Positions 46,116-54,066 of a stretch of 64,000 bases of DNA are shown in pieces. Location of the stretch: the NCBI GenBank assembly GCA_043101845.1, contig JBICHN010000011.1:913678-977677 (forward strand), written 5' to 3'. This DNA is from Phycisphaerales bacterium (GTDB taxonomy: Bacteria; Planctomycetota; Phycisphaerae; Phycisphaerales; UBA5793). The translations under genes were made by a program, and so were the position numbers. Under the pieces are notes generated by a model, which was not told where the DNA came from, searched no databases, and was given only the letters and a program-made list of their open reading frames with translations. How positions within the stretch are numbered: the first letter of the stretch is position 1; each line of letters opens with the position of its first letter.

Positions 46116-46167
46116 TCGCCGAACGCGGAGCGACCGTGCGTCCGCTTGTTGATTGAGGAGTGAGTCG

Positions 46168-48102
46168 ATGCGAGCTGATCGCGTCATCCAGCTTGTCGCC
46201 GCGATCCTGCTTGCCGGATGCTTCGTGGCCGCCGGGGCGCTCATGCCGTCGATCAATGCCTCGGCGTCCGACGCCCAGCTCAAGTACACGGACGAGGCGG
46301 CGGAAGGCGCGCCGCTGCCCGTCGTGATCGCCCAGTCGGTCGGTGTCCTGCGCGGCGTCATGGTGAACTACCTCTGGATCCGCGCCGACAAACTCAAGGA
46401 AGACGGCAAGTACTTCGAGGCGTACCACATCGCGAAATGGATTACCGATCTCCAGCCGCGCTTCGCCTCGGTCTGGCAGTTCCAGGCCTGGAACATGGCG
46501 TACAACATCTCCGTCGCGACGCATACCCGCGAAGAGCGATGGAACTGGGTGAACGCCGGCGTGCGCCTCCTCCGCGAGAAGGGCATTCGATACAACCCGA
46601 ACGACATGGGGCTCTACAAGGAGCTCGCGTGGACCTTCTTCCACAAGATCGGCGGCGCGACTGACGACGCCAATATGTACTACAAGCAGCAGATGGCGCA
46701 CGAGTGGCAGGGAATCCTCGGGCCGCCGGCGTACGAGGAGGATGAGCGTCTCGAAGCGATCGAAATCGTCGCCGGGGCTCCGGGACGGCTCGACGCGATT
46801 CTCGACGAATATCCAGCCGCCACTTCACTCGTCGCCGAACTCGACGCCATCGGATTCAAGCTCGATGTCAATCTGCTGCACGCGATCGAGCGGCTCCGCG
46901 CTGCGGAGTTCAGCTTTCTCGGTGAACAGCTCAATCTCGCCGAGGAGCTGCGCAACTTCGACCGGCTCGATCGCATGACGCCCGAGCAGCGAGAGCAGGT
47001 TGAACCCTACATGCTGCTCCGCCGGCTCCGCGACGAACCGCGGTACGCCGAGGTGTGGCCGGCCCTGCTCGCGCATACGCGGAAGCGGGTGCTGCTCGAC
47101 AACTACAACATGGATCCCGAATACATGCGGCTCTTCATGGAGCAGTTCGGGCCGCTCGACTGGCGTACGCCCCAGGCGCATTCAGTCTACTGGGCGGCGA
47201 TCGGCGTCGAGCGGGGCCTCGGGCGATACCAGCAGGAGTCGTTCGACCAGATCAACACCGATCGCCTGTTGTTTCACTCGCTTCAGGATCTTCGGCGCAA
47301 GGGTCGCATCTTCTACGATTACCTCACGCAGGAAATCAGTTTCGGTCCGGACCTTCGATTCACCGACTACTACCTGCAGGCCGCCGACATCGTTATCAAG
47401 AGAAACCCGTTCGGAGAGCGGGGCGGTGGGAGCGAAACCTACAAAGACGGCATGCGCAACTTTCTCATCGACGCGGTTCGCGAATACTACCTGTTCGGTG
47501 AGATCGCGAAGGCTGAAGAGCTCTATCGCCGACTGCGCACGGAGTTCGCCCAGGAAGACAAGCCGGACCGCTTCATGCGTCCTCTGCCCGAATTCATCAT
47601 GGTCGAGATGCGCGACCGGTACAGCTCGCCGGATGTGGCGCGACCGGCGATCATGAGTTTGATTGGACAGGCGTACCGCTACGGCCTGGCGCGGGAGGAT
47701 CGCGAGGCGTATTCCGAGAGCATCGCGATGGCCCGGCAGCTCTACGACTACATCGAAGAGTTCTACGCCGATTACCGTGGGCAGATTGAAACGAACGAAC
47801 GACGAATTCGCCTCAGCCCCTGGCCGGAGATGTTGCGCAACGCGTTCATCATGGTCATGACGGATGAAGCCGTTTCGCTTGAAGAGCGGGTGGCCCTTTA
47901 CAACTCAGGGCCCGTCGAGCGGCTCCGGCTCGAGACTTATGACGATCTTCTGCCGCAACTGCAGAATTCAGTGGTGCGGCGGCTCGGCTCGGTCGAGAGT
48001 TTCGACCGGTTCTTCCCGCCGCCCCCGGGGATCGAAGAGTACCGGGCCCGGCGGCAGGCGACGCCGGATGAAGAGAAGAATCTCCAGATCGAGCGGAAGT
48101 GA
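46168..48102 (+). CDS. Membrane-anchored helical (TPR-like) protein of the ABC locus
   Basis: SD GAGGAG, N-terminal TM, LWIRAD...WITDLQPRFASVWQFQAWNMAYNIS; last gene of the run. Confidence 0.8.
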   Translation: MRADRVIQLVAAILLAGCFVAAGALMPSINASASDAQLKYTDEAAEGAPLPVVIAQSVGVLRGVMVNYLWIRADKLKEDGKYFEAYHIAKWITDLQPRFASVWQFQAWNMAYNISVATHTREERWNWVNAGVRLLREKGIRYNPNDMGLYKELAWTFFHKIGGATDDANMYYKQQMAHEWQGILGPPAYEEDERLEAIEIVAGAPGRLDAILDEYPAATSLVAELDAIGFKLDVNLLHAIERLRAAEFSFLGEQLNLAEELRNFDRLDRMTPEQREQVEPYMLLRRLRDEPRYAEVWPALLAHTRKRVLLDNYNMDPEYMRLFMEQFGPLDWRTPQAHSVYWAAIGVERGLGRYQQESFDQINTDRLLFHSLQDLRRKGRIFYDYLTQEISFGPDLRFTDYYLQAADIVIKRNPFGERGGGSETYKDGMRNFLIDAVREYYLFGEIAKAEELYRRLRTEFAQEDKPDRFMRPLPEFIMVEMRDRYSSPDVARPAIMSLIGQAYRYGLAREDREAYSESIAMARQLYDYIEEFYADYRGQIETNERRIRLSPWPEMLRNAFIMVMTDEAVSLEERVALYNSGPVERLRLETYDDLLPQLQNSVVRRLGSVESFDRFFPPPPGIEEYRARRQATPDEEKNLQIERK

Positions 48103-48197
48103 CTCGCGGGCCGCTGGTTACCGAAGATCACCGGGTACGCCCCATTCGGACGGCCCCGGCTTGTTTCGCTCCGTTCGTCGACCGATACTTGTAGTGC

Positions 48198-48569
48198 ATG
48201 ACCTCGACGCCTTCCCGTACTCGCACGGTTCGACCCGCCGGCCTTCCGGCGGCGACGCTGGTCGCCCTCGCGGCGCTGGCGGTCGCGTTGTCAGCCGGGG
48301 ATACGGCGACGCAGGGTTGGCCAAGCCGTTCGCTCGCCCGGGAAACGCTCGGCGTCGAGCAACCACTTCGAATCTGGAGCGTCCGCGTCGTCCGCGCTGC
48401 GCAGCGTCTGGTGGGCGCTCAGGCCGTGGCGGCGCTCAACCCGGCTCCGACGGATGTCACGATCCGCGATCAATCCGGGCTTGATCCCGATCGAGAGGCG
48501 CTTGACCGTCCGATCGAGGCGCCTGTCCTTCTTGGACACCTCAATCTTCCGCCGCCGCTCGCCGGTTGA
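48198..48569 (+). CDS. secA upstream ORF, candidate secretion-monitor/arrest peptide
   Basis: 123 aa with a basic N-terminus, signal-like AATLVALAALAVALSA and C-terminal HLNLPPPLAG; ends 158 nt before secA. Confidence 0.65.
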   Translation: MTSTPSRTRTVRPAGLPAATLVALAALAVALSAGDTATQGWPSRSLARETLGVEQPLRIWSVRVVRAAQRLVGAQAVAALNPAPTDVTIRDQSGLDPDREALDRPIEAPVLLGHLNLPPPLAG

Positions 48570-48727
48570 TACTGAGATGTGGGCGCCCGTATGGCGTTCG
48601 ATGCTCGCCGCCCGATCACCCGTCGGGCGAGCTTGAAGGTCGAGTCATTCGCGCGGCCACCTGAATCGCGCCGGCGCCTTGCGTCGTCGCCCCCGGCACT
48701 TTCATCACGAATCACAAGAGGTTAATC

Positions 48728-51700
48728 ATGCCTGGTGTTCCCGTAGTGGGGCCATTGATGGCGAAGCTGTTCGGCACGCGAAACGAACGCCTCGTCAAGA
48801 AGTACCTCGGCCGCGTTGAAGAGATCAACGCGCTCGAGCCCGAACTGCGCAAGCTTTCCGATGCGGAGTTGCGCGCGAAGACGAGTGAATTTCAGGAGCG
48901 ATACCGGAACGGTGAGTCGGAGAACGATCTCATCGTCGAGGTCTTCGCCGTGGCTCGGGAGGTCATGGACCGCGCGGTCGGGATACGCAATATCTTCGAT
49001 CCGACGCTCGAATTCGACCCGTCCATCCTTCCCGACGATGCGCGACGCCTGTACGACGAGACGAAGGCGAAGATCGCCGAGACTCCCGACGCCGAGCCGG
49101 CGGGTGAACTCATCGGCAACACCGAGCTCGTCCCCGCGTGGAAACTCGTCGACATTCCCACCCGGCTCCACGACGCGATTCGTGAGCTCTACCCCGAATC
49201 GAAGCCGCCATTTCGATCCCGCCCGTTCGATGTGCAGCTGGTGGGCGGGATTGTGCTCGCGGACCATAAGTACGACCGCGTGCGGTCCGCGGCCCAGGCC
49301 CGGAATGTCTACTTCGGCGCCATCGCCGAAATGAAGACCGGTGAAGGTAAGACGATCGTCGCGCCCCTCGCGAGTTATCTCCACGCGATCGCGAACCGTC
49401 AGATTCATGTCGTGACGGTGAACTCCTATCTCGTTCGCCGCGACCGCTACTGGACCTTTCCCTTCTTCTACCACCTCGGCCTGACGGTGGGGTACATCGC
49501 GCCAATGCACGAGATGCCCGAACCGTTCAAGAAGGCGGCGTACCGCTGCCATGTCGTGTACGGAACCACGAGTGAATTCGGCTTTGACTACCTGCGCGAC
49601 AACATGAAGCTTCGAGTCGAGGATCAGGTGCAGAAGCGTCGCGATTTCGCGATCGTCGACGAGGTCGACTCCACCCTGATCGACGAGGCGCGGACTCCGC
49701 TCATCATTTCGGGCCCCGCGCACGAGGAGGCGCCGCGATACCATGTCGCCGACAAGCTCGCGCGACATCTCGTCGAGAAGCAGCGGCCCTGGAACGAGGC
49801 GAACAAGCGGGTGGAGACGGCCAAGATGCGCATCAAGGGCATCGAAGGCGACATCCGCAACGCGCGCGACAAATCGAAGGTTCCCCAGCTGCGCGAGGAA
49901 CTCGAGAGACTTCAGAACGAACTGCCGCAACTCGAGGACGCGCGCGATCGCCACATCAAGTACTACGACCTCGAGATGGACAAGAAACAGGTCCATCTCG
50001 AGCACGAAGGCGTCACTGAAGCCCAGAAGGTGGCGGACATCGGGTCGTTCTATGTCGGCGACAACATTGACATGCCACACCTCCTCGAGCAGGCGTTGCG
50101 CGGTCACACGGTCTACGAACGGGATCGCGACTATGTCGTCAAGGATGGTCAAGTCGTCATCGTGGACCAGTTCACCGGCCGCCTCATGGTCGGTCGTCAG
50201 TGGTCCGACGGCCTGCACCAGGCGGTCGAGGCGAAAGAGGGCGTAGAGATCAAGCCCGAAACGCAGACCATGGCGACGATCACCATCCAGAACTTCTTCA
50301 AGCTCTATGAACGCCTCAGCGGCATGACCGGCACGGCGGATACGGAGGCGCAGGAATTTCACGACATCTACCACATGGATGTCGTCGTCATCCCGACGAA
50401 TCTCCCCGTGATCCGCAACGACTTCAACGACCGCGTCTACCTGAGCGAGAAGGACAAGTGGAATGCGATCGTCGAGGAGATCAAGAATTTCCACGATCTC
50501 GGCCGTCCGGTTCTCGTCGGGACGACTTCCGTCGAGAAGTCGGAGATGCTCAGTCAGCGACTGACGAAGAAGTACGGCATTCAGCATGAAGTCCTCAACG
50601 CGAAGCAGCACGAGCGTGAAGCCCACATGATCGAAAGCGCTGGTGTGCTCGGCGCCGTCATGATCGCCACGAACATGGCCGGTCGTGGAACCGACATCAA
50701 ACTGCGTTCGGTGAATCGGGAAGACCTGATCAACCACTGGAAGCGACGGGCCCTGTGTCCGCGCCAGGTTGAGCCGTCCATGTCGGACGAGGAGATCATT
50801 CAGGCGATCTATCGCTACCTCGCGGAGAAGCGCCTCGGAATGAAGAAGGCCGAAGTCGAAGCGCTGTCGGACGAGGAAGTGCAGCGTCGCCTGCTCTCGG
50901 CCTGGGCCCTCGAGTACACCTATCTCGAGCAGAAGGCGATCGACAAGATGTCGAACGATGAGCTGCGCGAGGAACTCGACGAGGGGGGCAACTTCCTCCT
51001 GCATCGGCTTGAGATGTGGAAGTCGACCGAGGCACTCGGCGGTCTCCATGTCATCGGAACCGAGCGGCATGAGTCACGCCGGATCGACAACCAGCTTCGC
51101 GGTCGTTCGGGCCGTCAGGGCGACAATGGTTCGACGCGGTTCTTCATCAGTCTCGAAGATGACCTCATGCAGATGTTCGCCGGTGAGACGACGATGCGTG
51201 TGCTCAGCCGGCTCGGCATGAAGGAAGGCGACGCCATCGAGCATCCCATGCTCACCCGCGCCGTCGAGCGGGCGCAGCGCAAGGTCGAGGAGCGCAACTT
51301 CGAGATTCGCAAGAACATTCTCGAATACGACGAAGTGATGGATCACCAGCGACTAAGTTTCTACGGCCGTCGGCAGCGCATTCTCGAAGGTCGCGGGCTA
51401 CGCGAGATTGTGCTCGAGTACATCGAAGAGGCGATCGATGATGCGGTCGACCGCTTCATGGCGCCCGACTTCGTTTCATCATGCATCGGCGAGTGGGTGC
51501 AGACGAACCTCGATGTGTCGATCGAGCCCGACCGGCTGCGGATGAAGGATCGTGATGATCTCTTCGAACGGATCCGTCGGGACGCGAACGCCGATCAGCT
51601 TCAGGCGATTGGGGTGACGATCGGCGAGTTCATGAACGACGATACCGATCCGATCGACTGGGATGTCAAGGGTCTCGTCTCGTGGGCTCGTTCTCGTTAC

Positions 51701-52888
51701 GGCGTCGAGCTTCGCGCGAGCGAAGTCCGGGAGATGAACTCCGCCCAGGTCACCGAGATTATCGCGGAGGCGGCGCGCGAGCGGACGAGCGCGGTCGACC
51801 TCACGCCCCTCGATCAATACCTCGCCGATCATTACGGCGCGCAGGAACTCGTCGATTGGGCGAACGGCAAGTTTCTTCTCAATCTCGACCTCGAAGACAT
51901 CGTCAAGTTCGAGACGAACGACGAAGTCCGCGAGTTCCTGTTCGACAAGGCACGAGAGGCCTATCTCGATCGCGAAGTTCGGTATCCCGTCGATTACGCG
52001 ATCGACATGACGATGGCCATCATGGCGCAGGATCCCCAGGCGGCGCTCGATCAACTCGCACAGTTCGCCCGCCGAAAATATGGTCTCGACTGGGACGCGA
52101 GCTACCTGCGCATCAACACGCCTCAGCAATATCGTGAGGAACTCCTCGACGAGTCGAGAAAGTGGGCGACCGGCAGAGTTGACGAGGTGGTGGATGAGGC
52201 GCTCCGAGACTATCCCGATGATGAGTCTCTCGACGCGTGGCTTCAGGAGCGGTTCGGCATGCGTCTCCGAGACCTCGATCGAAACCGGGAAGGCGATGAG
52301 CGTCGACAGATGCTTCACCACCGGGTCGAACAATTCTCCCGCAGCGAACTCAATCAGTTCGAGCGGTTCGTGCTGCTCCAAATTCTGGATCAGTCGTGGA
52401 AGGACCACCTCTACTTCATGGATCAACTGCGAAGTTCGGTGAGCTTCCGGGCGTTTGCGCAGCAGGACCCTCGTATCGAATACCGTCGCGAAGGCCGCCG
52501 TCTCTTCGACCGGATGCACGAGACGATCCGGGACAAGGTGACCGATCTCATCTTCAAGGCGAAGCTCACGCCGAGCTACCAGCCGCGCAGCGTGTACCGA
52601 TCGGCCCGTGAAGTCGCGCCGCCGCCGCAGGACACCGGCGTACATGCGCCGACGGCGGCGGGTGGCGCTGGCGCAGCTGCGGCGACGGCCAGCGCCGACG
52701 CGTCCCCGGCGGGAGCGCGACAGCCCGAACCGTCGGCGCCGTCGGCCCCGGAGCCTGAACCGGTGGGGGCCGGCGCCCGCGCGTCGGGCTCGTCGTCTTC
52801 GTCGAGATCCGAGAGTCGATCGAAGCCGAAGGGGTCCAAGCGCACGCAGTCGCCGAAGAAGGGCAAACGGAACAAGAAGAGTCGCTGA
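48728..52888 (+). CDS. secA: Preprotein translocase ATPase SecA, enlarged (1386 aa)
   Basis: FGTRNER, EMKTGEGKT, DEVDS.LIDEARTPLIISG, GMTGTA, NMAGRGTDI, GTERHESRRIDNQLRGRSGRQGD, QQDPRIEY. Confidence 0.97.
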   Translation: MPGVPVVGPLMAKLFGTRNERLVKKYLGRVEEINALEPELRKLSDAELRAKTSEFQERYRNGESENDLIVEVFAVAREVMDRAVGIRNIFDPTLEFDPSILPDDARRLYDETKAKIAETPDAEPAGELIGNTELVPAWKLVDIPTRLHDAIRELYPESKPPFRSRPFDVQLVGGIVLADHKYDRVRSAAQARNVYFGAIAEMKTGEGKTIVAPLASYLHAIANRQIHVVTVNSYLVRRDRYWTFPFFYHLGLTVGYIAPMHEMPEPFKKAAYRCHVVYGTTSEFGFDYLRDNMKLRVEDQVQKRRDFAIVDEVDSTLIDEARTPLIISGPAHEEAPRYHVADKLARHLVEKQRPWNEANKRVETAKMRIKGIEGDIRNARDKSKVPQLREELERLQNELPQLEDARDRHIKYYDLEMDKKQVHLEHEGVTEAQKVADIGSFYVGDNIDMPHLLEQALRGHTVYERDRDYVVKDGQVVIVDQFTGRLMVGRQWSDGLHQAVEAKEGVEIKPETQTMATITIQNFFKLYERLSGMTGTADTEAQEFHDIYHMDVVVIPTNLPVIRNDFNDRVYLSEKDKWNAIVEEIKNFHDLGRPVLVGTTSVEKSEMLSQRLTKKYGIQHEVLNAKQHEREAHMIESAGVLGAVMIATNMAGRGTDIKLRSVNREDLINHWKRRALCPRQVEPSMSDEEIIQAIYRYLAEKRLGMKKAEVEALSDEEVQRRLLSAWALEYTYLEQKAIDKMSNDELREELDEGGNFLLHRLEMWKSTEALGGLHVIGTERHESRRIDNQLRGRSGRQGDNGSTRFFISLEDDLMQMFAGETTMRVLSRLGMKEGDAIEHPMLTRAVERAQRKVEERNFEIRKNILEYDEVMDHQRLSFYGRRQRILEGRGLREIVLEYIEEAIDDAVDRFMAPDFVSSCIGEWVQTNLDVSIEPDRLRMKDRDDLFERIRRDANADQLQAIGVTIGEFMNDDTDPIDWDVKGLVSWARSRYGVELRASEVREMNSAQVTEIIAEAARERTSAVDLTPLDQYLADHYGAQELVDWANGKFLLNLDLEDIVKFETNDEVREFLFDKAREAYLDREVRYPVDYAIDMTMAIMAQDPQAALDQLAQFARRKYGLDWDASYLRINTPQQYREELLDESRKWATGRVDEVVDEALRDYPDDESLDAWLQERFGMRLRDLDRNREGDERRQMLHHRVEQFSRSELNQFERFVLLQILDQSWKDHLYFMDQLRSSVSFRAFAQQDPRIEYRREGRRLFDRMHETIRDKVTDLIFKAKLTPSYQPRSVYRSAREVAPPPQDTGVHAPTAAGGAGAAAATASADASPAGARQPEPSAPSAPEPEPVGAGARASGSSSSSRSESRSKPKGSKRTQSPKKGKRNKKSR

Positions 52889-52974: not shown

Positions 52975-54066
52975 ATGCTTCTGCTGCTCGCCGATTATCT
53001 CCATCGACTCGACCCGTTCGCCATTCAGTTCAGCGAGTCGTTCGGCGTGCGGTGGTACGGTCTCGCGTACGCCGCAGGATTCCTTGTCGCGTATCTGCTC
53101 GGTCGCGAATTGGCGCGACGCCGACTCTTCGCCGTTCATCCGGACGCGGTAGGTGATTACCTCATGGCCGGAATCATCGGCGTGCTCGCCGGCGGCCGGC
53201 TCGGCTATGTCCTGTTCTACAACCCGAGCGCGATCTGGACTTTTTCCGACTCGTTTCCCTTCTGGGAAGTCCTCGCGGTGAATCGCGGCGGCATGGCGAG
53301 CCACGGCGGCATGATCGGTGTCATCCTCGCGGTCGTCTGGTTCGCCCGGCGTGAGCGTCTCCCCATTGCGCACATCTGGGATGTGTCAGCGCTGCTCACA
53401 CCGTTTGGACTGTTCTTCGGTCGGCTCGCCAATTTCGTGAACGGCGAGCTTCGTGGAAAGCCGGCCGGCGCCGACTTTCCGCTCGCGGTGAGGTTTCCGC
53501 AGGAGATTCGCGAAGACTGGGGAGTCGCCGAGATGCGTCGGCTCGACGAGATCGCGGGCGACGCAGGATTTACGACCACCGACTGGACCCGCACGCTCGA
53601 TCAGGCGGCGGCGGGCGATCCGATGGCCTACGACTCCTATCTCGCGATGAAGGAGCGCATCATCGATCTCCTTCAATCCGGATCGCCCGAGGTCACCGCT
53701 GCGGTCGAGCCCCTGATCACGCCGCGGCACCCATCGCAACTCTATCAGGCGCTCGCCGAAGGGATCATCCTCGCAACGGCGCTCTGGTTGATCTTCCTCG
53801 TCGCGAAGCCGAAACGATCCGGATGGATCGGAGTGGGGTTCATGCTCATCTACGGCGCCCTTCGAGTCGTGACCGAAATCTGGCGCACGCCCGATGAAGG
53901 CGTGGCTCTCGTCGCCGGACTGAGCCGCGGCCAGCAACTCAGCGCCGTCATGCTGCTGGTCGGCCTCGTCTACACCGCTTACATTCTCTGGAGGCCGAGC
54001 CCTTCACCATGGGCCGAGCCGCCGTTGAGGAGTTCGCGTGAAGCATCCATGCCGACGACATCGTGA
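52975..54066 (+). CDS. lgt: Prolipoprotein diacylglyceryl transferase
   Basis: VRWYGLAY, GGMASHGG, GRLANFVNGE, RHPSQLY; TATCAT lies 6 nt before the ATG. Confidence 0.95.
   Translation: MLLLLADYLHRLDPFAIQFSESFGVRWYGLAYAAGFLVAYLLGRELARRRLFAVHPDAVGDYLMAGIIGVLAGGRLGYVLFYNPSAIWTFSDSFPFWEVLAVNRGGMASHGGMIGVILAVVWFARRERLPIAHIWDVSALLTPFGLFFGRLANFVNGELRGKPAGADFPLAVRFPQEIREDWGVAEMRRLDEIAGDAGFTTTDWTRTLDQAAAGDPMAYDSYLAMKERIIDLLQSGSPEVTAAVEPLITPRHPSQLYQALAEGIILATALWLIFLVAKPKRSGWIGVGFMLIYGALRVVTEIWRTPDEGVALVAGLSRGQQLSAVMLLVGLVYTAYILWRPSPSPWAEPPLRSSREASMPTTS

What the first reader, a model, noticed from the sequence alone, without database searches (positions are those of the whole stretch)
48198..48727. 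SecM-like secretion-monitor uORF ending in LNLPPP upstream of secA
Seen: a 123-aa ORF with a signal-like N-terminus and C-terminal HLNLPPPLAG, directly upstream of secA. A hairpin lies at 48603-48632, and uORF 3' segments (CCTTCTTG 48527-48534, ACCTC 48538-48542) are complementary to the secA SD region (CAAGAGGT). Known: SecM, MifM, VemP and Apd/Apc peptides pair an export signal with a C-terminal arrest motif to regulate downstream sec/yidC genes, and PPP stalls ribosomes. Inference: an independently evolved SecA feedback sensor.
Basis: partly seen in the sequence, partly recalled or inferred. Interest (0 to 1): 0.72.

Follow-up and report, generated by a model that had tools for sequence, protein, structure and literature searches.

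The report
Known LPPP stalling peptide before secA
The small gene in front of the protein-export motor gene secA is real and conserved, but it belongs to a ribosome-stalling "secretion monitor" family (uA_LPPP) published in 2024 for this same group of bacteria, so the find is correct and not new.

Summary
A 123-codon ORF (48198-48569, + strand) has a signal-peptide-like N-terminus, ends in ...LLGHLNLPPPLAG-stop, and lies 158 nt upstream of secA (48728-52888).

It is a real, selected gene. All seven genomes of the sister genus carry a full-length ortholog. 28 of 30 further secA loci across the order carry an LPPP-coding uORF 100-250 nt upstream on the same strand. Substitutions between close orthologs fall mainly on third codon positions.

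It is not a new sensor. Fujiwara et al. 2024 (Nat Commun 15:2711) defined the "uA_LPPP" family: signal-sequence uORFs upstream of secA with LPPP in the last 15 residues, in Phycisphaerales and two sister orders. They showed ribosome arrest for one homolog, with the second Pro in the P-site. Every sequence-level criterion of that family is met here.

Secretion-dependent release and secA induction remain untested for this family.

Small additions:
- A second conserved motif (A-A-R-x-L) lies about 52 residues before the stall site.
- A conserved promoter sits directly upstream of the uORF, with an almost leaderless start, and none lies in the spacer.

The parts
48161..48189 (+). Sigma-70-like promoter of the uORF-secA unit: -35 TTGTTT (48161-66), 17-nt spacer, -10 GATACT (48184-89). 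The uORF ATG follows 8 nt after the -10 element, so the leader is very short or absent.
   Evidence: TTGNNN-17/18-GATA[ACG]T lies upstream of the uORF in 17 of 32 related loci, in 0 of 32 spacers and in 1 of 32 uORF bodies. The whole genome holds only 32 copies on both strands, so about 0.0006 are expected per 150 nt. The stricter consensus scan missed it. The transcription start is inferred, not shown.
48198..48569 (+). uA_LPPP-type arrest-peptide uORF, 123 codons plus TGA
   Evidence: ORF listing. Full-length orthologs lie upstream of secA in relatives. Substitutions by codon position are 5/6/32 and 22/23/56 in two ortholog pairs. The family is described in PMC10987492.
48198..48299 (+). Signal-peptide-like N-terminus (residues 1-34): n-region with R7, R9 and R12, h-region about L16-L31, then SAG|D
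   Evidence: The best 15-residue hydropathy window scores 2.31 and starts at residue 18. An equivalent segment is present in all relatives examined. This is a heuristic; no SignalP was available. There is no lipobox Cys and no twin-arginine motif (read from the sequence).
48387..48416 (+). Central conserved motif VVRAAQRLVG (residues 64-73). It is the local form of the family-wide hydrophobic-x-x-A-A-R-x-L motif and lies about 52 residues before the P-site proline.
   Evidence: The strict motif lies 48-61 residues before the P-site in 12 of 24 genera, against 0.29 expected (maximum 4 in 2000 shuffles). The MAFFT consensus column reads 'AAR L'. Its function is unknown. I found no mention of it in PMC10987492.
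48528..48557 (+). Arrest module L111-L-G-H-L-N-L117-P118-P119-P120. The predicted stall has Pro119 (48552-54) in the P-site and Pro120 (48555-57) in the A-site.
   Evidence: The consensus over 24 genera is L-[LI]-[ND]-L-P-P-P, followed by 1-5 residues and a stop. The stall position is inferred from the toeprint of the published homolog, where the P-site is the third codon of L110PPP.
48570..48727 (+). 158-nt untranslated spacer between the uORF stop and the secA start. It contains the GC-rich hairpin 48603-48632 and a C-over-G bias in its 3' half.
   Evidence: The spacer is 98-192 nt in relatives. The window's hairpin is real but scores z = -0.04. Across 23 genera the strongest local hairpin averages z = -1.04 (p = 1e-5), at variable positions. 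C/G skew is +0.18 on average, against +0.07 in the uORF. No promoter-like motif is present.
48716..48721 (+). secA Shine-Dalgarno AAGAGG, 6 nt before the ATG at 48728
   Evidence: Read from the sequence. SD-like words occupy the same place in relatives.
48728..52888 (+). secA (1386 aa), the presumed regulated gene
   Evidence: Pfam hits: SecA_DEAD 2e-101, P-loop_SecA 5e-76, SecA_SW 8e-51, SecA_PP_bind 7e-31.

Best explanation
The uORF is an ortholog of the published uA_LPPP family of Sec-associated translation-arrest peptides (Fujiwara et al. 2024).

Proposed mechanism:
1. The uORF and secA are transcribed together from a conserved promoter just upstream of the uORF. This is inferred from motif conservation.
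2. The uORF is translated from an almost leaderless start, and its signal peptide engages the Sec pathway.
3. At L117-P118-P119-P120 the nascent chain arrests its own ribosome, with Pro119 in the P-site and Pro120-tRNA in the A-site. This was shown for a homolog, not for this sequence.
4. When export works, the pull on the roughly 100-residue spacer releases the arrest. The ribosome terminates three codons later and secA stays at basal level.
5. When export is slow, the arrest persists and raises secA expression.

Steps 4 and 5 are inferred by analogy with SecM, VemP and MifM. They have not been shown for any uA_LPPP member.

How the stall reaches secA across the 158-nt spacer is open. I found no conserved helix linking the stall site to the secA ribosome-binding site.
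For: Family definition and experiments (PMC10987492):
- uORFs upstream of secA with .PPP in the last 15 residues (45 of 52 are LPPP).
- An N-terminal signal sequence in 50 of 52.
- Orders Phycisphaerales, UBA1161 and WQYP01.
- For one homolog, the arrested fraction was 1.0 in the B. subtilis PURE system and 0.51 in the E. coli PURE system. L110A, P111A and PPP-to-APA reduced arrest. The toeprint placed the P-site at the second Pro. The in vivo arrest index was 22.4 in B. subtilis and 1.59 in E. coli.

This locus meets every sequence criterion.

Taxonomy: a same-family relative is recorded as 'MAG: Phycisphaerales bacterium'.

Conservation:
- Full-length orthologs lie upstream of secA in all 7 genomes of the sister genus, plus three other genera of the family.
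- The LPPP word lies upstream of secA in 28 of 30 further loci of the order.
- All 36 translated frames are open.
- Only the signal, a central motif and the C-terminal module are conserved.
- Third-position substitution bias shows selection on the peptide.
- The motif is unique in the genome.
- A promoter motif lies upstream of the uORF and none lies in the spacer.
Against: - No experiment exists on this sequence or in its host, which is a sponge-metagenome MAG. No RNA runs were found.
- The tested homolog barely arrested E. coli ribosomes in vivo, and the authors suspect an EF-P effect. This genome has two EF-P-domain genes.
- LPPP is a weak polyproline context in E. coli.
- Forcing a stalled-ribosome footprint open does not expose the secA SD more than control footprints do (p = 0.32).
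- The footprint region is not a preferred partner of the SD (median rank 0.37).
- It is not a preferred partner of the whole initiation region either (median rank 0.68; in this window it is the worst of all windows).
- Whole-region folds are no more stable than shuffles (z = -0.74 and -0.31).
Confidence: 0.8

Rival explanations
1. Same arrest peptide, different output step. The ribosome stalled a few codons before the uORF stop blocks Rho loading or termination in the long untranslated spacer, as TnaC does. A prolonged stall would then raise secA transcription rather than unmask its SD.
For: - The spacer is long (98-192 nt) and untranslated in all relatives.
- It is consistently C-over-G: mean skew +0.18 overall and +0.21 in the 3' half, against +0.07 in the uORF (p = 0.0015).
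- The stall site is always 1-5 codons from the stop.
- rho is present at 651 bits, above its cut-off.
- No conserved SD-sequestering helix was found.
Against: - The skew is modest for a rut site.
- No Rho-dependent terminator can be called from sequence.
- All characterised Sec/YidC monitors (SecM, MifM, VemP, uDF_RQH) act through RBS-masking stem-loops.
- Long-range RNA predictions in 63-70% GC sequence are unreliable, so failing to find a helix is weak evidence.
Confidence: 0.2
2. The uORF encodes an ordinary small secreted protein that happens to sit before secA. Its C-terminal LPPP is a structural or processing motif with no regulatory role.
For: - It has a plausible Sec signal peptide and a length typical of small exported proteins.
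- No regulation has been shown for any uA_LPPP member.
Against: - The mature region diverges almost freely while the last ~7 residues stay fixed.
- The position before secA is kept across six families of the order.
- A homolog arrests ribosomes exactly at LPPP.
- The motif occurs nowhere else in this form in the genome.
Confidence: 0.05
3. The PPP pause reports EF-P activity or proline-tRNA supply rather than secretion. It would couple secA to translation capacity.
For: - PPP is the classical EF-P-dependent pause.
- The E. coli result for the homolog differs between the EF-P-free in vitro system and in vivo.
- Two EF-P-domain genes are present.
Against: - An invariant signal peptide and a rather constant 90-112-residue spacer are unexplained by this model.
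- Leu at -1 is the weak context for generic PPP stalling, yet it is invariant here.
- The homolog arrests strongly in B. subtilis cells, which have EF-P.
Confidence: 0.05
4. The region is not coding on the + strand. The atypical GC by codon position (0.78/0.60/0.70) reflects an antisense ORF (48291-48539, - strand) or non-coding DNA.
For: - GC3 is lower than in neighbouring genes, and the antisense frame has a more gene-like GC pattern.
- There are no Pfam hits.
Against: - The + frame is open in 36 of 36 relatives, with conserved N- and C-terminal modules.
- Substitutions between orthologs concentrate on + frame third positions: 5/6/32, with 31 synonymous against 11 non-synonymous codons.
- High GC at first positions is expected for an Ala/Leu/Pro/Arg-rich peptide.
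Confidence: 0.01

Closest known systems
uA_LPPP arrest peptides (Fujiwara, Tsuji, Yoshida, Takada & Chiba 2024, Nat Commun 15:2711, PMC10987492)
   Same: - Same gene context: a uORF directly upstream of secA.
- Same N-terminal signal sequence.
- Same LPPP within the last 15 residues, followed by a few residues and a stop.
- Same taxon (Phycisphaerales).
- Similar size: 123 aa here against 115 aa for the tested homolog.
- A long signal-to-arrest spacer, typical of Sec monitors.
   Different: Nothing at the level of the family definition.
- This instance has three residues after PPP, where the tested homolog has two.
- It has H-L-N before LPPP.
- It comes from a sponge-metagenome MAG whose run is dated 2024, so it was probably not among the 52 sequences of the paper. 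The paper's sequence tables are truncated in the held copy, so this could not be checked.
- I did not find the central A-A-R-x-L motif, the conserved promoter with its near-leaderless start, or any analysis of the spacer RNA in the paper.
SecM (E. coli secM-secA)
   Same: - A signal-sequence uORF co-transcribed with secA.
- Arrest a few codons before the stop, with Pro-tRNA in the A-site.
- Presumed feedback on SecA.
   Different: - No sequence homology (no Pfam hit).
- The arrest motif is LPPP, not FxxxxWIxxxxGIRAGP.
- The spacer is 158 nt here.
- No SD-sequestering stem overlapping the stall site could be found.
RAPP-like 'RQH' arrest peptides (ApdA, ApdP, uA_RQH; Sakiyama 2021 PMC7897499; Morici 2024 PMC10951233)
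   Same: - Proline-rich C-terminal arrest motif ending in PP.
- Upstream of Sec genes.
- Export signal at the N-terminus.
   Different: The defining R/Q/H-[AG]-P-[PG] word is absent. The residues before PP are N-L-P, with an invariant Leu. Fujiwara et al. treat LPPP as a separate, novel motif.
Generic EF-P-dependent polyproline pauses (Ude 2013; Doerfel 2013; Starosta 2014 PMC4176338)
   Same: Three consecutive prolines, with a stall that has the second Pro in the P-site.
   Different: - LPPP is a weak context for generic stalling in E. coli.
- Here the upstream L-[LI]-[ND]-L is conserved.
- In the homolog, Leu is needed for arrest on B. subtilis ribosomes and arrest persists in B. subtilis cells.
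These points indicate a nascent-chain-specific arrest.

Membership tests
uA_LPPP (Fujiwara et al. 2024) | uORF immediately upstream of secA on the same strand | tested here: met
   The uORF is at 48198-48569 and secA at 48728-52888. SecA Pfam domains were found.
uA_LPPP (Fujiwara et al. 2024) | xPPP (mostly LPPP) within the C-terminal 15 residues | tested here: met
   L117-P118-P119-P120 of 123 residues. This matches the regular expression in the authors' script.
uA_LPPP (Fujiwara et al. 2024) | Predicted N-terminal signal sequence | tested here: met
   Three Arg, a hydrophobic core (hydropathy 2.31 over 15 residues from residue 18), then SAG|D. This is a heuristic only; SignalP was not available.
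uA_LPPP (Fujiwara et al. 2024) | Host in Planctomycetota, orders Phycisphaerales, UBA1161 or WQYP01 | tested here: met
   G008, in the same GTDB family as the window's genome, is titled 'MAG: Phycisphaerales bacterium'. The evidence is indirect, because the window's own record name is withheld.
uA_LPPP (Fujiwara et al. 2024) | Orthologs with the same architecture in related genomes | tested here: met
   All 7 genomes of the sister genus (profile E-values 1e-28 to 1e-62) and three further genera of the family have it. So do 28 of 30 other secA loci of the order.
uA_LPPP (Fujiwara et al. 2024) | Ribosome arrest at LPPP (P-site = second Pro), dependent on Leu and Pro | not testable with these tools
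   Shown for one homolog only. It needs in vitro translation and toeprinting of this sequence.
Sec-monitoring substrates (functional class: SecM, VemP) | Arrest released by active export of the nascent chain | not testable with these tools
   Not shown for any uA_LPPP member. The 101-residue distance from signal to P-site is compatible with it.
Sec-monitoring substrates (functional class: SecM, VemP) | The stalled ribosome opens an RNA structure that masks the RBS of the downstream gene | tested here: inconclusive
   No conserved helix links the stall site to the RBS. SD accessibility with stalled against control footprints gives p = 0.32. Duplex rank medians are 0.37 and 0.68. In the sister genus an alifold helix pairs the arrest codons with the secA start, but with a single compensatory pair.
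Sec-monitoring substrates (functional class: SecM, VemP) | Co-transcription of monitor and target | tested here: met
   The promoter motif lies upstream of the uORF in 17 of 32 loci and in none of 32 spacers. No terminator-like site was found. This is sequence evidence only; there are no transcript data.
SecM (Pfam SecM family) | Sequence homology and the FxxxxWIxxxxGIRAGP arrest motif | tested here: not met
   No Pfam family at E <= 0.01. The motif is absent from the peptide.
RAPP-like / RQH arrest peptides | [RQH]-[AG]-P-[PG] word at the arrest site | tested here: not met
   The arrest site reads H-L-N-L-P-P-P, with no R/Q/H-[AG] before PP. The family consensus is L-[LI]-[ND]-L-PPP.

The most novel reading that the evidence does not exclude
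uA_LPPP peptides may be three-part sensors rather than a signal plus a polyproline stop. The second conserved element, hydrophobic-x-x-A-A-R-x-L, lies a fixed 51-55 residues from the peptidyl-transferase centre. That would put it at or just outside the tunnel exit of the arrested ribosome. There it could dock on the ribosome surface or on SecA/SecYEG and set how much pulling force releases the arrest. The output to secA may also not be SecM-like SD unmasking at all. It could work instead through Rho or another process acting on the long C-rich spacer of a near-leaderless transcript.
Probability: 0.2. Interest if true: 0.55.

Novelty: already known. Interest (0 to 1): 0.28.

Why it matters
For annotation, this is an unannotated but functional small gene. 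The uORF and secA should be treated as one regulatory unit in Phycisphaerales genomes.

For the field, the locus adds nothing categorically new, because the family, its motif, its taxon range and its arrest activity were published in 2024.

Three things remain open and are made more concrete here:
- How the stall is transmitted to secA over a 100-190-nt spacer that shows no conserved stall-site/RBS helix.
- What the conserved A-A-R-x-L motif about 52 residues upstream of the stall does.
- Whether the uORF is translated from a leaderless mRNA.

All three can be tested with standard reporter and in vitro translation assays.

Tried and rejected
1. Antisense or non-coding reading. I raised this after seeing atypical GC by codon position. 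The third-position substitution bias and the open, conserved + frame reject it.

2. The duplex is only -9.0 kcal/mol and is absent from the MFE and the ensemble. In the full-leader fold the SD pairs instead with 48202-05 or locally.

3. A general 'stalled ribosome opens the secA SD' model. I tested it on 33 loci with partition-function folding and forced-open footprints. The stall position is no different from control footprints (p = 0.32).

4. Duplex-rank tests of the footprint against the SD or the whole initiation region. Neither showed enrichment. For the initiation region the footprint pairs worse than average.

5. The hairpin 48603-32 as a special element. It scores z = -0.04 in this window, and there is no U-tract terminator.

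6. Consensus folding in the sister genus. It gives a helix between the arrest codons and the secA start with one compensatory synonymous pair. That is too little to accept, and the other genera do not reproduce it.

7. A search of genome contigs with the C-terminal peptide pattern returned only one confirmed relative. Scanning secA loci with the genome search worked much better.

8. A second LPPP-type monitor elsewhere in the genome (for example before secDF or yidC). None was found.

9. RNA-seq support. Only DNA (metagenome) runs hold the sequence.

10. The paper's supplementary sequence tables are truncated in the held copy. I could not check whether this exact peptide is among its 52.

Full report
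**Observation.**
It runs 48198-48569 on the + strand, starts with ATG and has 123 codons. It ends ...APVLLGHLNLPPPLAG-TGA. The next gene, from 48728, is secA. It is 1386 aa, with SecA_DEAD, P-loop_SecA, SecA_SW and SecA_PP_bind hits from 2e-101 to 7e-31. The gap between them is 158 nt. The N-terminus has three arginines, a hydrophobic core (best 15-residue hydropathy 2.31, from residue 18) and SAG|D. That is the build of a Sec signal peptide. The hairpin at 48603-48632 and the short segments complementary to the secA SD are present as described.

**Is it a gene?**
GC by codon position is atypical: 0.78/0.60/0.70, against about 0.66/0.39/0.80 in neighbouring genes. The antisense frame looked more gene-like on that measure, so I tested coding directly.
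- A search of 60 relatives gave weak but full-length matches in the same family.
- In three of them the match is a 125-126-codon ORF directly upstream of secA, ending ...SHLALPPPRA...THLALPPPLA or ...SHMALPPPLA.
- A profile of the four peptides found an ortholog in all seven genomes of the sister genus (E-values 6e-28 to 7e-62).
- Between close ortholog pairs, substitutions fall on codon positions 1/2/3 as 5/6/32 (31 synonymous against 11 non-synonymous codons) and 22/23/56.
- Amino-acid identity is highest in the signal (0.97 and 0.84) and in the last 14 residues (1.00 and 0.93), and lowest in the middle (0.87 and 0.56).

The + frame is therefore translated and under selection. The conserved ends with a free middle are the usual signature of regulatory arrest peptides.

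**Distribution.**
I fetched the secA start region from 30 more genomes of the order, covering six families.
- The word YTN-CCN-CCN-CC (Leu-Pro-Pro-Pro) lies 100-250 nt upstream of secA on the same strand in 28 of them. The background in the same loci is about 16 stray matches in roughly 190 kb of strand sequence.
- All 36 frames translated upstream of that word are open.
- Of the two loci without the word, one has MPPP at the aligned place and one is cut by a contig end. One further locus, G012, has the word but reads unclearly.
- Over 24 genera the consensus is L-[LI]-[ND]-L-P-P-P, then 1-5 residues, then a stop.
- The hydrophobic segment starts 87-124 residues before the P-site proline in most peptides (101 in this window), with a few outliers.
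- Within this genome the motif is unique. Only two stop-to-stop ORFs of at least 50 aa end with [LIMV]x[LM]PPP in their last 15 residues, and only this one has a hydrophobic N-terminal segment.

**What it is.**
The family is already published. Fujiwara, Tsuji, Yoshida, Takada and Chiba (Nat Commun 2024, 15:2711; PMC10987492) screened about 30,000 genomes for uORFs before secA, secDF and yidC. They named a cluster 'uA_LPPP':
- The members are uORFs of secA with LPPP (45 of 52; xPPP in the rest) within the last 15 residues.
- 50 of 52 have a predicted signal sequence.

The authors tested one 115-residue homolog:
- It arrested B. subtilis ribosomes completely in vitro (arrested fraction 1.0) and E. 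coli ribosomes partly (0.51).
- L110A, P111A and PPP-to-APA lowered arrest.
- Toeprinting put the second proline in the P-site.
- The in vivo arrest index was 22.4 in B. subtilis and 1.59 in E. coli. The authors suspect that the E. coli in vitro arrest reflects the lack of EF-P.

One same-family relative of the window's genome is recorded as 'MAG: Phycisphaerales bacterium'. Every sequence-level criterion of the family is met here (see the membership table). A full-text search found no later paper on uA_LPPP.

**What is and is not known about the mechanism.**
The paper showed arrest-dependent induction of the downstream gene only for a different family, uDF_RQH_Enterobacterales. For uA_LPPP, neither export-dependent release nor secA induction has been tested.

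Plain polyproline stalling is also not the whole story:
- In E. coli, LPPP is among the weakest xPPP contexts and is over-represented in normal proteins (Starosta et al. 2014, PMC4176338).
- This genome has two EF-P-domain genes.
- The invariant Leu and the conserved L-[LI]-[ND] before it are therefore likely to be part of a specific nascent-chain arrest. This fits the Leu-to-Ala effect seen on B. subtilis ribosomes.

**RNA switch.**
- In this window the region 48500-48745 folds no better than shuffles (z = -0.74). The spacer alone gives z = -0.31.
- The SD is about 60% unpaired in the fold of the uORF's 3' end plus spacer and about 37% unpaired in the full-leader fold. It pairs locally or with the 5' end of the transcript, not with 48527-48542.
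- Across 33 loci, forcing open a 30-nt footprint around the predicted P-site raises SD accessibility slightly (0.45 to 0.49). Control footprints elsewhere in the uORF do the same (0.48; p = 0.32).
- The footprint region is not a preferred duplex partner of the SD (median rank 0.37 over 23 genera).
- It is not a preferred partner of the whole initiation region either (median rank 0.68). In this window every other segment pairs better.
- In the sister genus, RNAalifold proposes a helix between the arrest-site codons and the secA start codon. It has one compensatory pair made of two synonymous changes. That is not enough, and the other genera do not reproduce it.
- The spacers do tend to hold one strong local hairpin (mean z = -1.04 over 23 genera, p = 1e-5), but at varying positions. 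The window's own hairpin scores z = -0.04.
- The spacers are consistently richer in C than in G (mean skew +0.18, against +0.07 in the uORF), and rho is present.

A TnaC-like Rho mechanism therefore remains a live alternative for the output step. I give it about 0.2.

**Small additions.**
1. A second conserved peptide motif, hydrophobic-x-x-A-A-R-x-L, lies 48-61 (mostly 51-55) residues before the P-site in 12 of 24 genera. Shuffles give 0.29 on average, with a maximum of 4 in 2000. The family alignment has a consensus column 'AAR L'. In this window it reads VVRAAQRLVG (residues 64-73). The paper's logos cover only 29 residues before the P-site, and I found no mention of this motif.
2. A sigma-70-like promoter, TTGNNN-17/18-GATA[ACG]T, lies just upstream of the uORF in 17 of 32 loci and in none of the spacers. 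The whole genome has only 32 copies. In this window it is TTGTTT (48161-66), 17 nt, then GATACT (48184-89). The start codon follows the -10 element by 6-15 nt in many lineages and by 8 nt here. The uORF therefore probably has little or no leader and no SD. This supports co-transcription of the uORF and secA. No transcript data exist for this sponge-metagenome MAG.

**Verdict.**
- The functional reading, a SecM-like secretion monitor that evolved independently, is right in kind. Its claim of novelty and its specific RNA mechanism are not supported.
- The object is an ortholog of the published uA_LPPP family, so it is already known.
- I put family membership at about 0.93.
- I put the full feedback model (secretion-released arrest that raises SecA) at about 0.7.
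- Overall confidence in the best explanation is 0.8.

Noticed in passing
window 48161-48198; related loci L022-L060: A conserved promoter-like motif, TTGNNN-17/18-GATA[ACG]T, lies directly upstream of the uORF in 17 of 32 loci of the order. None lies in the uORF-secA spacers, and the whole genome has only 32 copies. The start codon follows 6-15 nt after the -10 element in many lineages (8 nt here), which suggests a leaderless or near-leaderless uORF.
   Followed up: partly
window 48387-48416 (residues 64-73, VVRAAQRLVG): A second conserved peptide motif (hydrophobic-x-x-A-A-R-x-L) sits a fixed ~51-55 residues before the stall-site proline. It occurs in 12 of 24 genera, against 0.29 expected by shuffling. 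Its function is unknown, and I found no mention of it in the 2024 paper.
   Followed up: partly
L022-L029 (sister genus), alignment A5 columns 12-35 with 174-188: RNAalifold pairs the L-A-L-P...A-stop codons of the uORF with the secA start codon and codons 2-5. One pair changes U-A to G-C through two synonymous Pro-codon changes (G008). This may be a lineage-specific stall-sensitive helix. It was not seen in the window's genus.
   Followed up: partly
window 48570-48727 and the equivalent spacers of 33 loci: The spacers between the uORF and secA are consistently C-rich relative to G (mean skew +0.18 overall, +0.21 in the 3' half). They hold one stronger-than-shuffled hairpin at variable positions. 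rho is present in the genome.
   Followed up: partly
L039 (G018), L050 (G012), L048 (G023): These are the exceptions. G018 has I-D-M-P-P-P (MPPP) at the aligned place. In G012 the LPPP word lies in an Arg-rich frame without a hydrophobic segment, so its uORF is unclear. G023 is cut by a contig end 129 nt upstream of secA.
   Followed up: no
window 52600-52888 (SecA residues ~1290-1386): SecA is very long here (1386 aa; 1266-1573 aa in relatives). It ends in a low-complexity Ala/Pro/Ser tract followed by a Lys/Arg-rich tail. I saw no Cys/His zinc-finger-like C-terminus in the translation.
   Followed up: no
window 52975-54066: lgt (prolipoprotein diacylglyceryl transferase, Pfam LGT 8e-58) follows secA on the same strand after an 86-nt gap.
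   Followed up: no
window 46153-48102: The 649-aa ORF that ends 95 nt before the uORF has no Pfam hit at E <= 0.01.
   Followed up: no
whole window: The only public run holding the sequence completely is a 2024 sponge-metagenome DNA run. The genome is therefore a MAG, and no RNA data were found.
   Followed up: no
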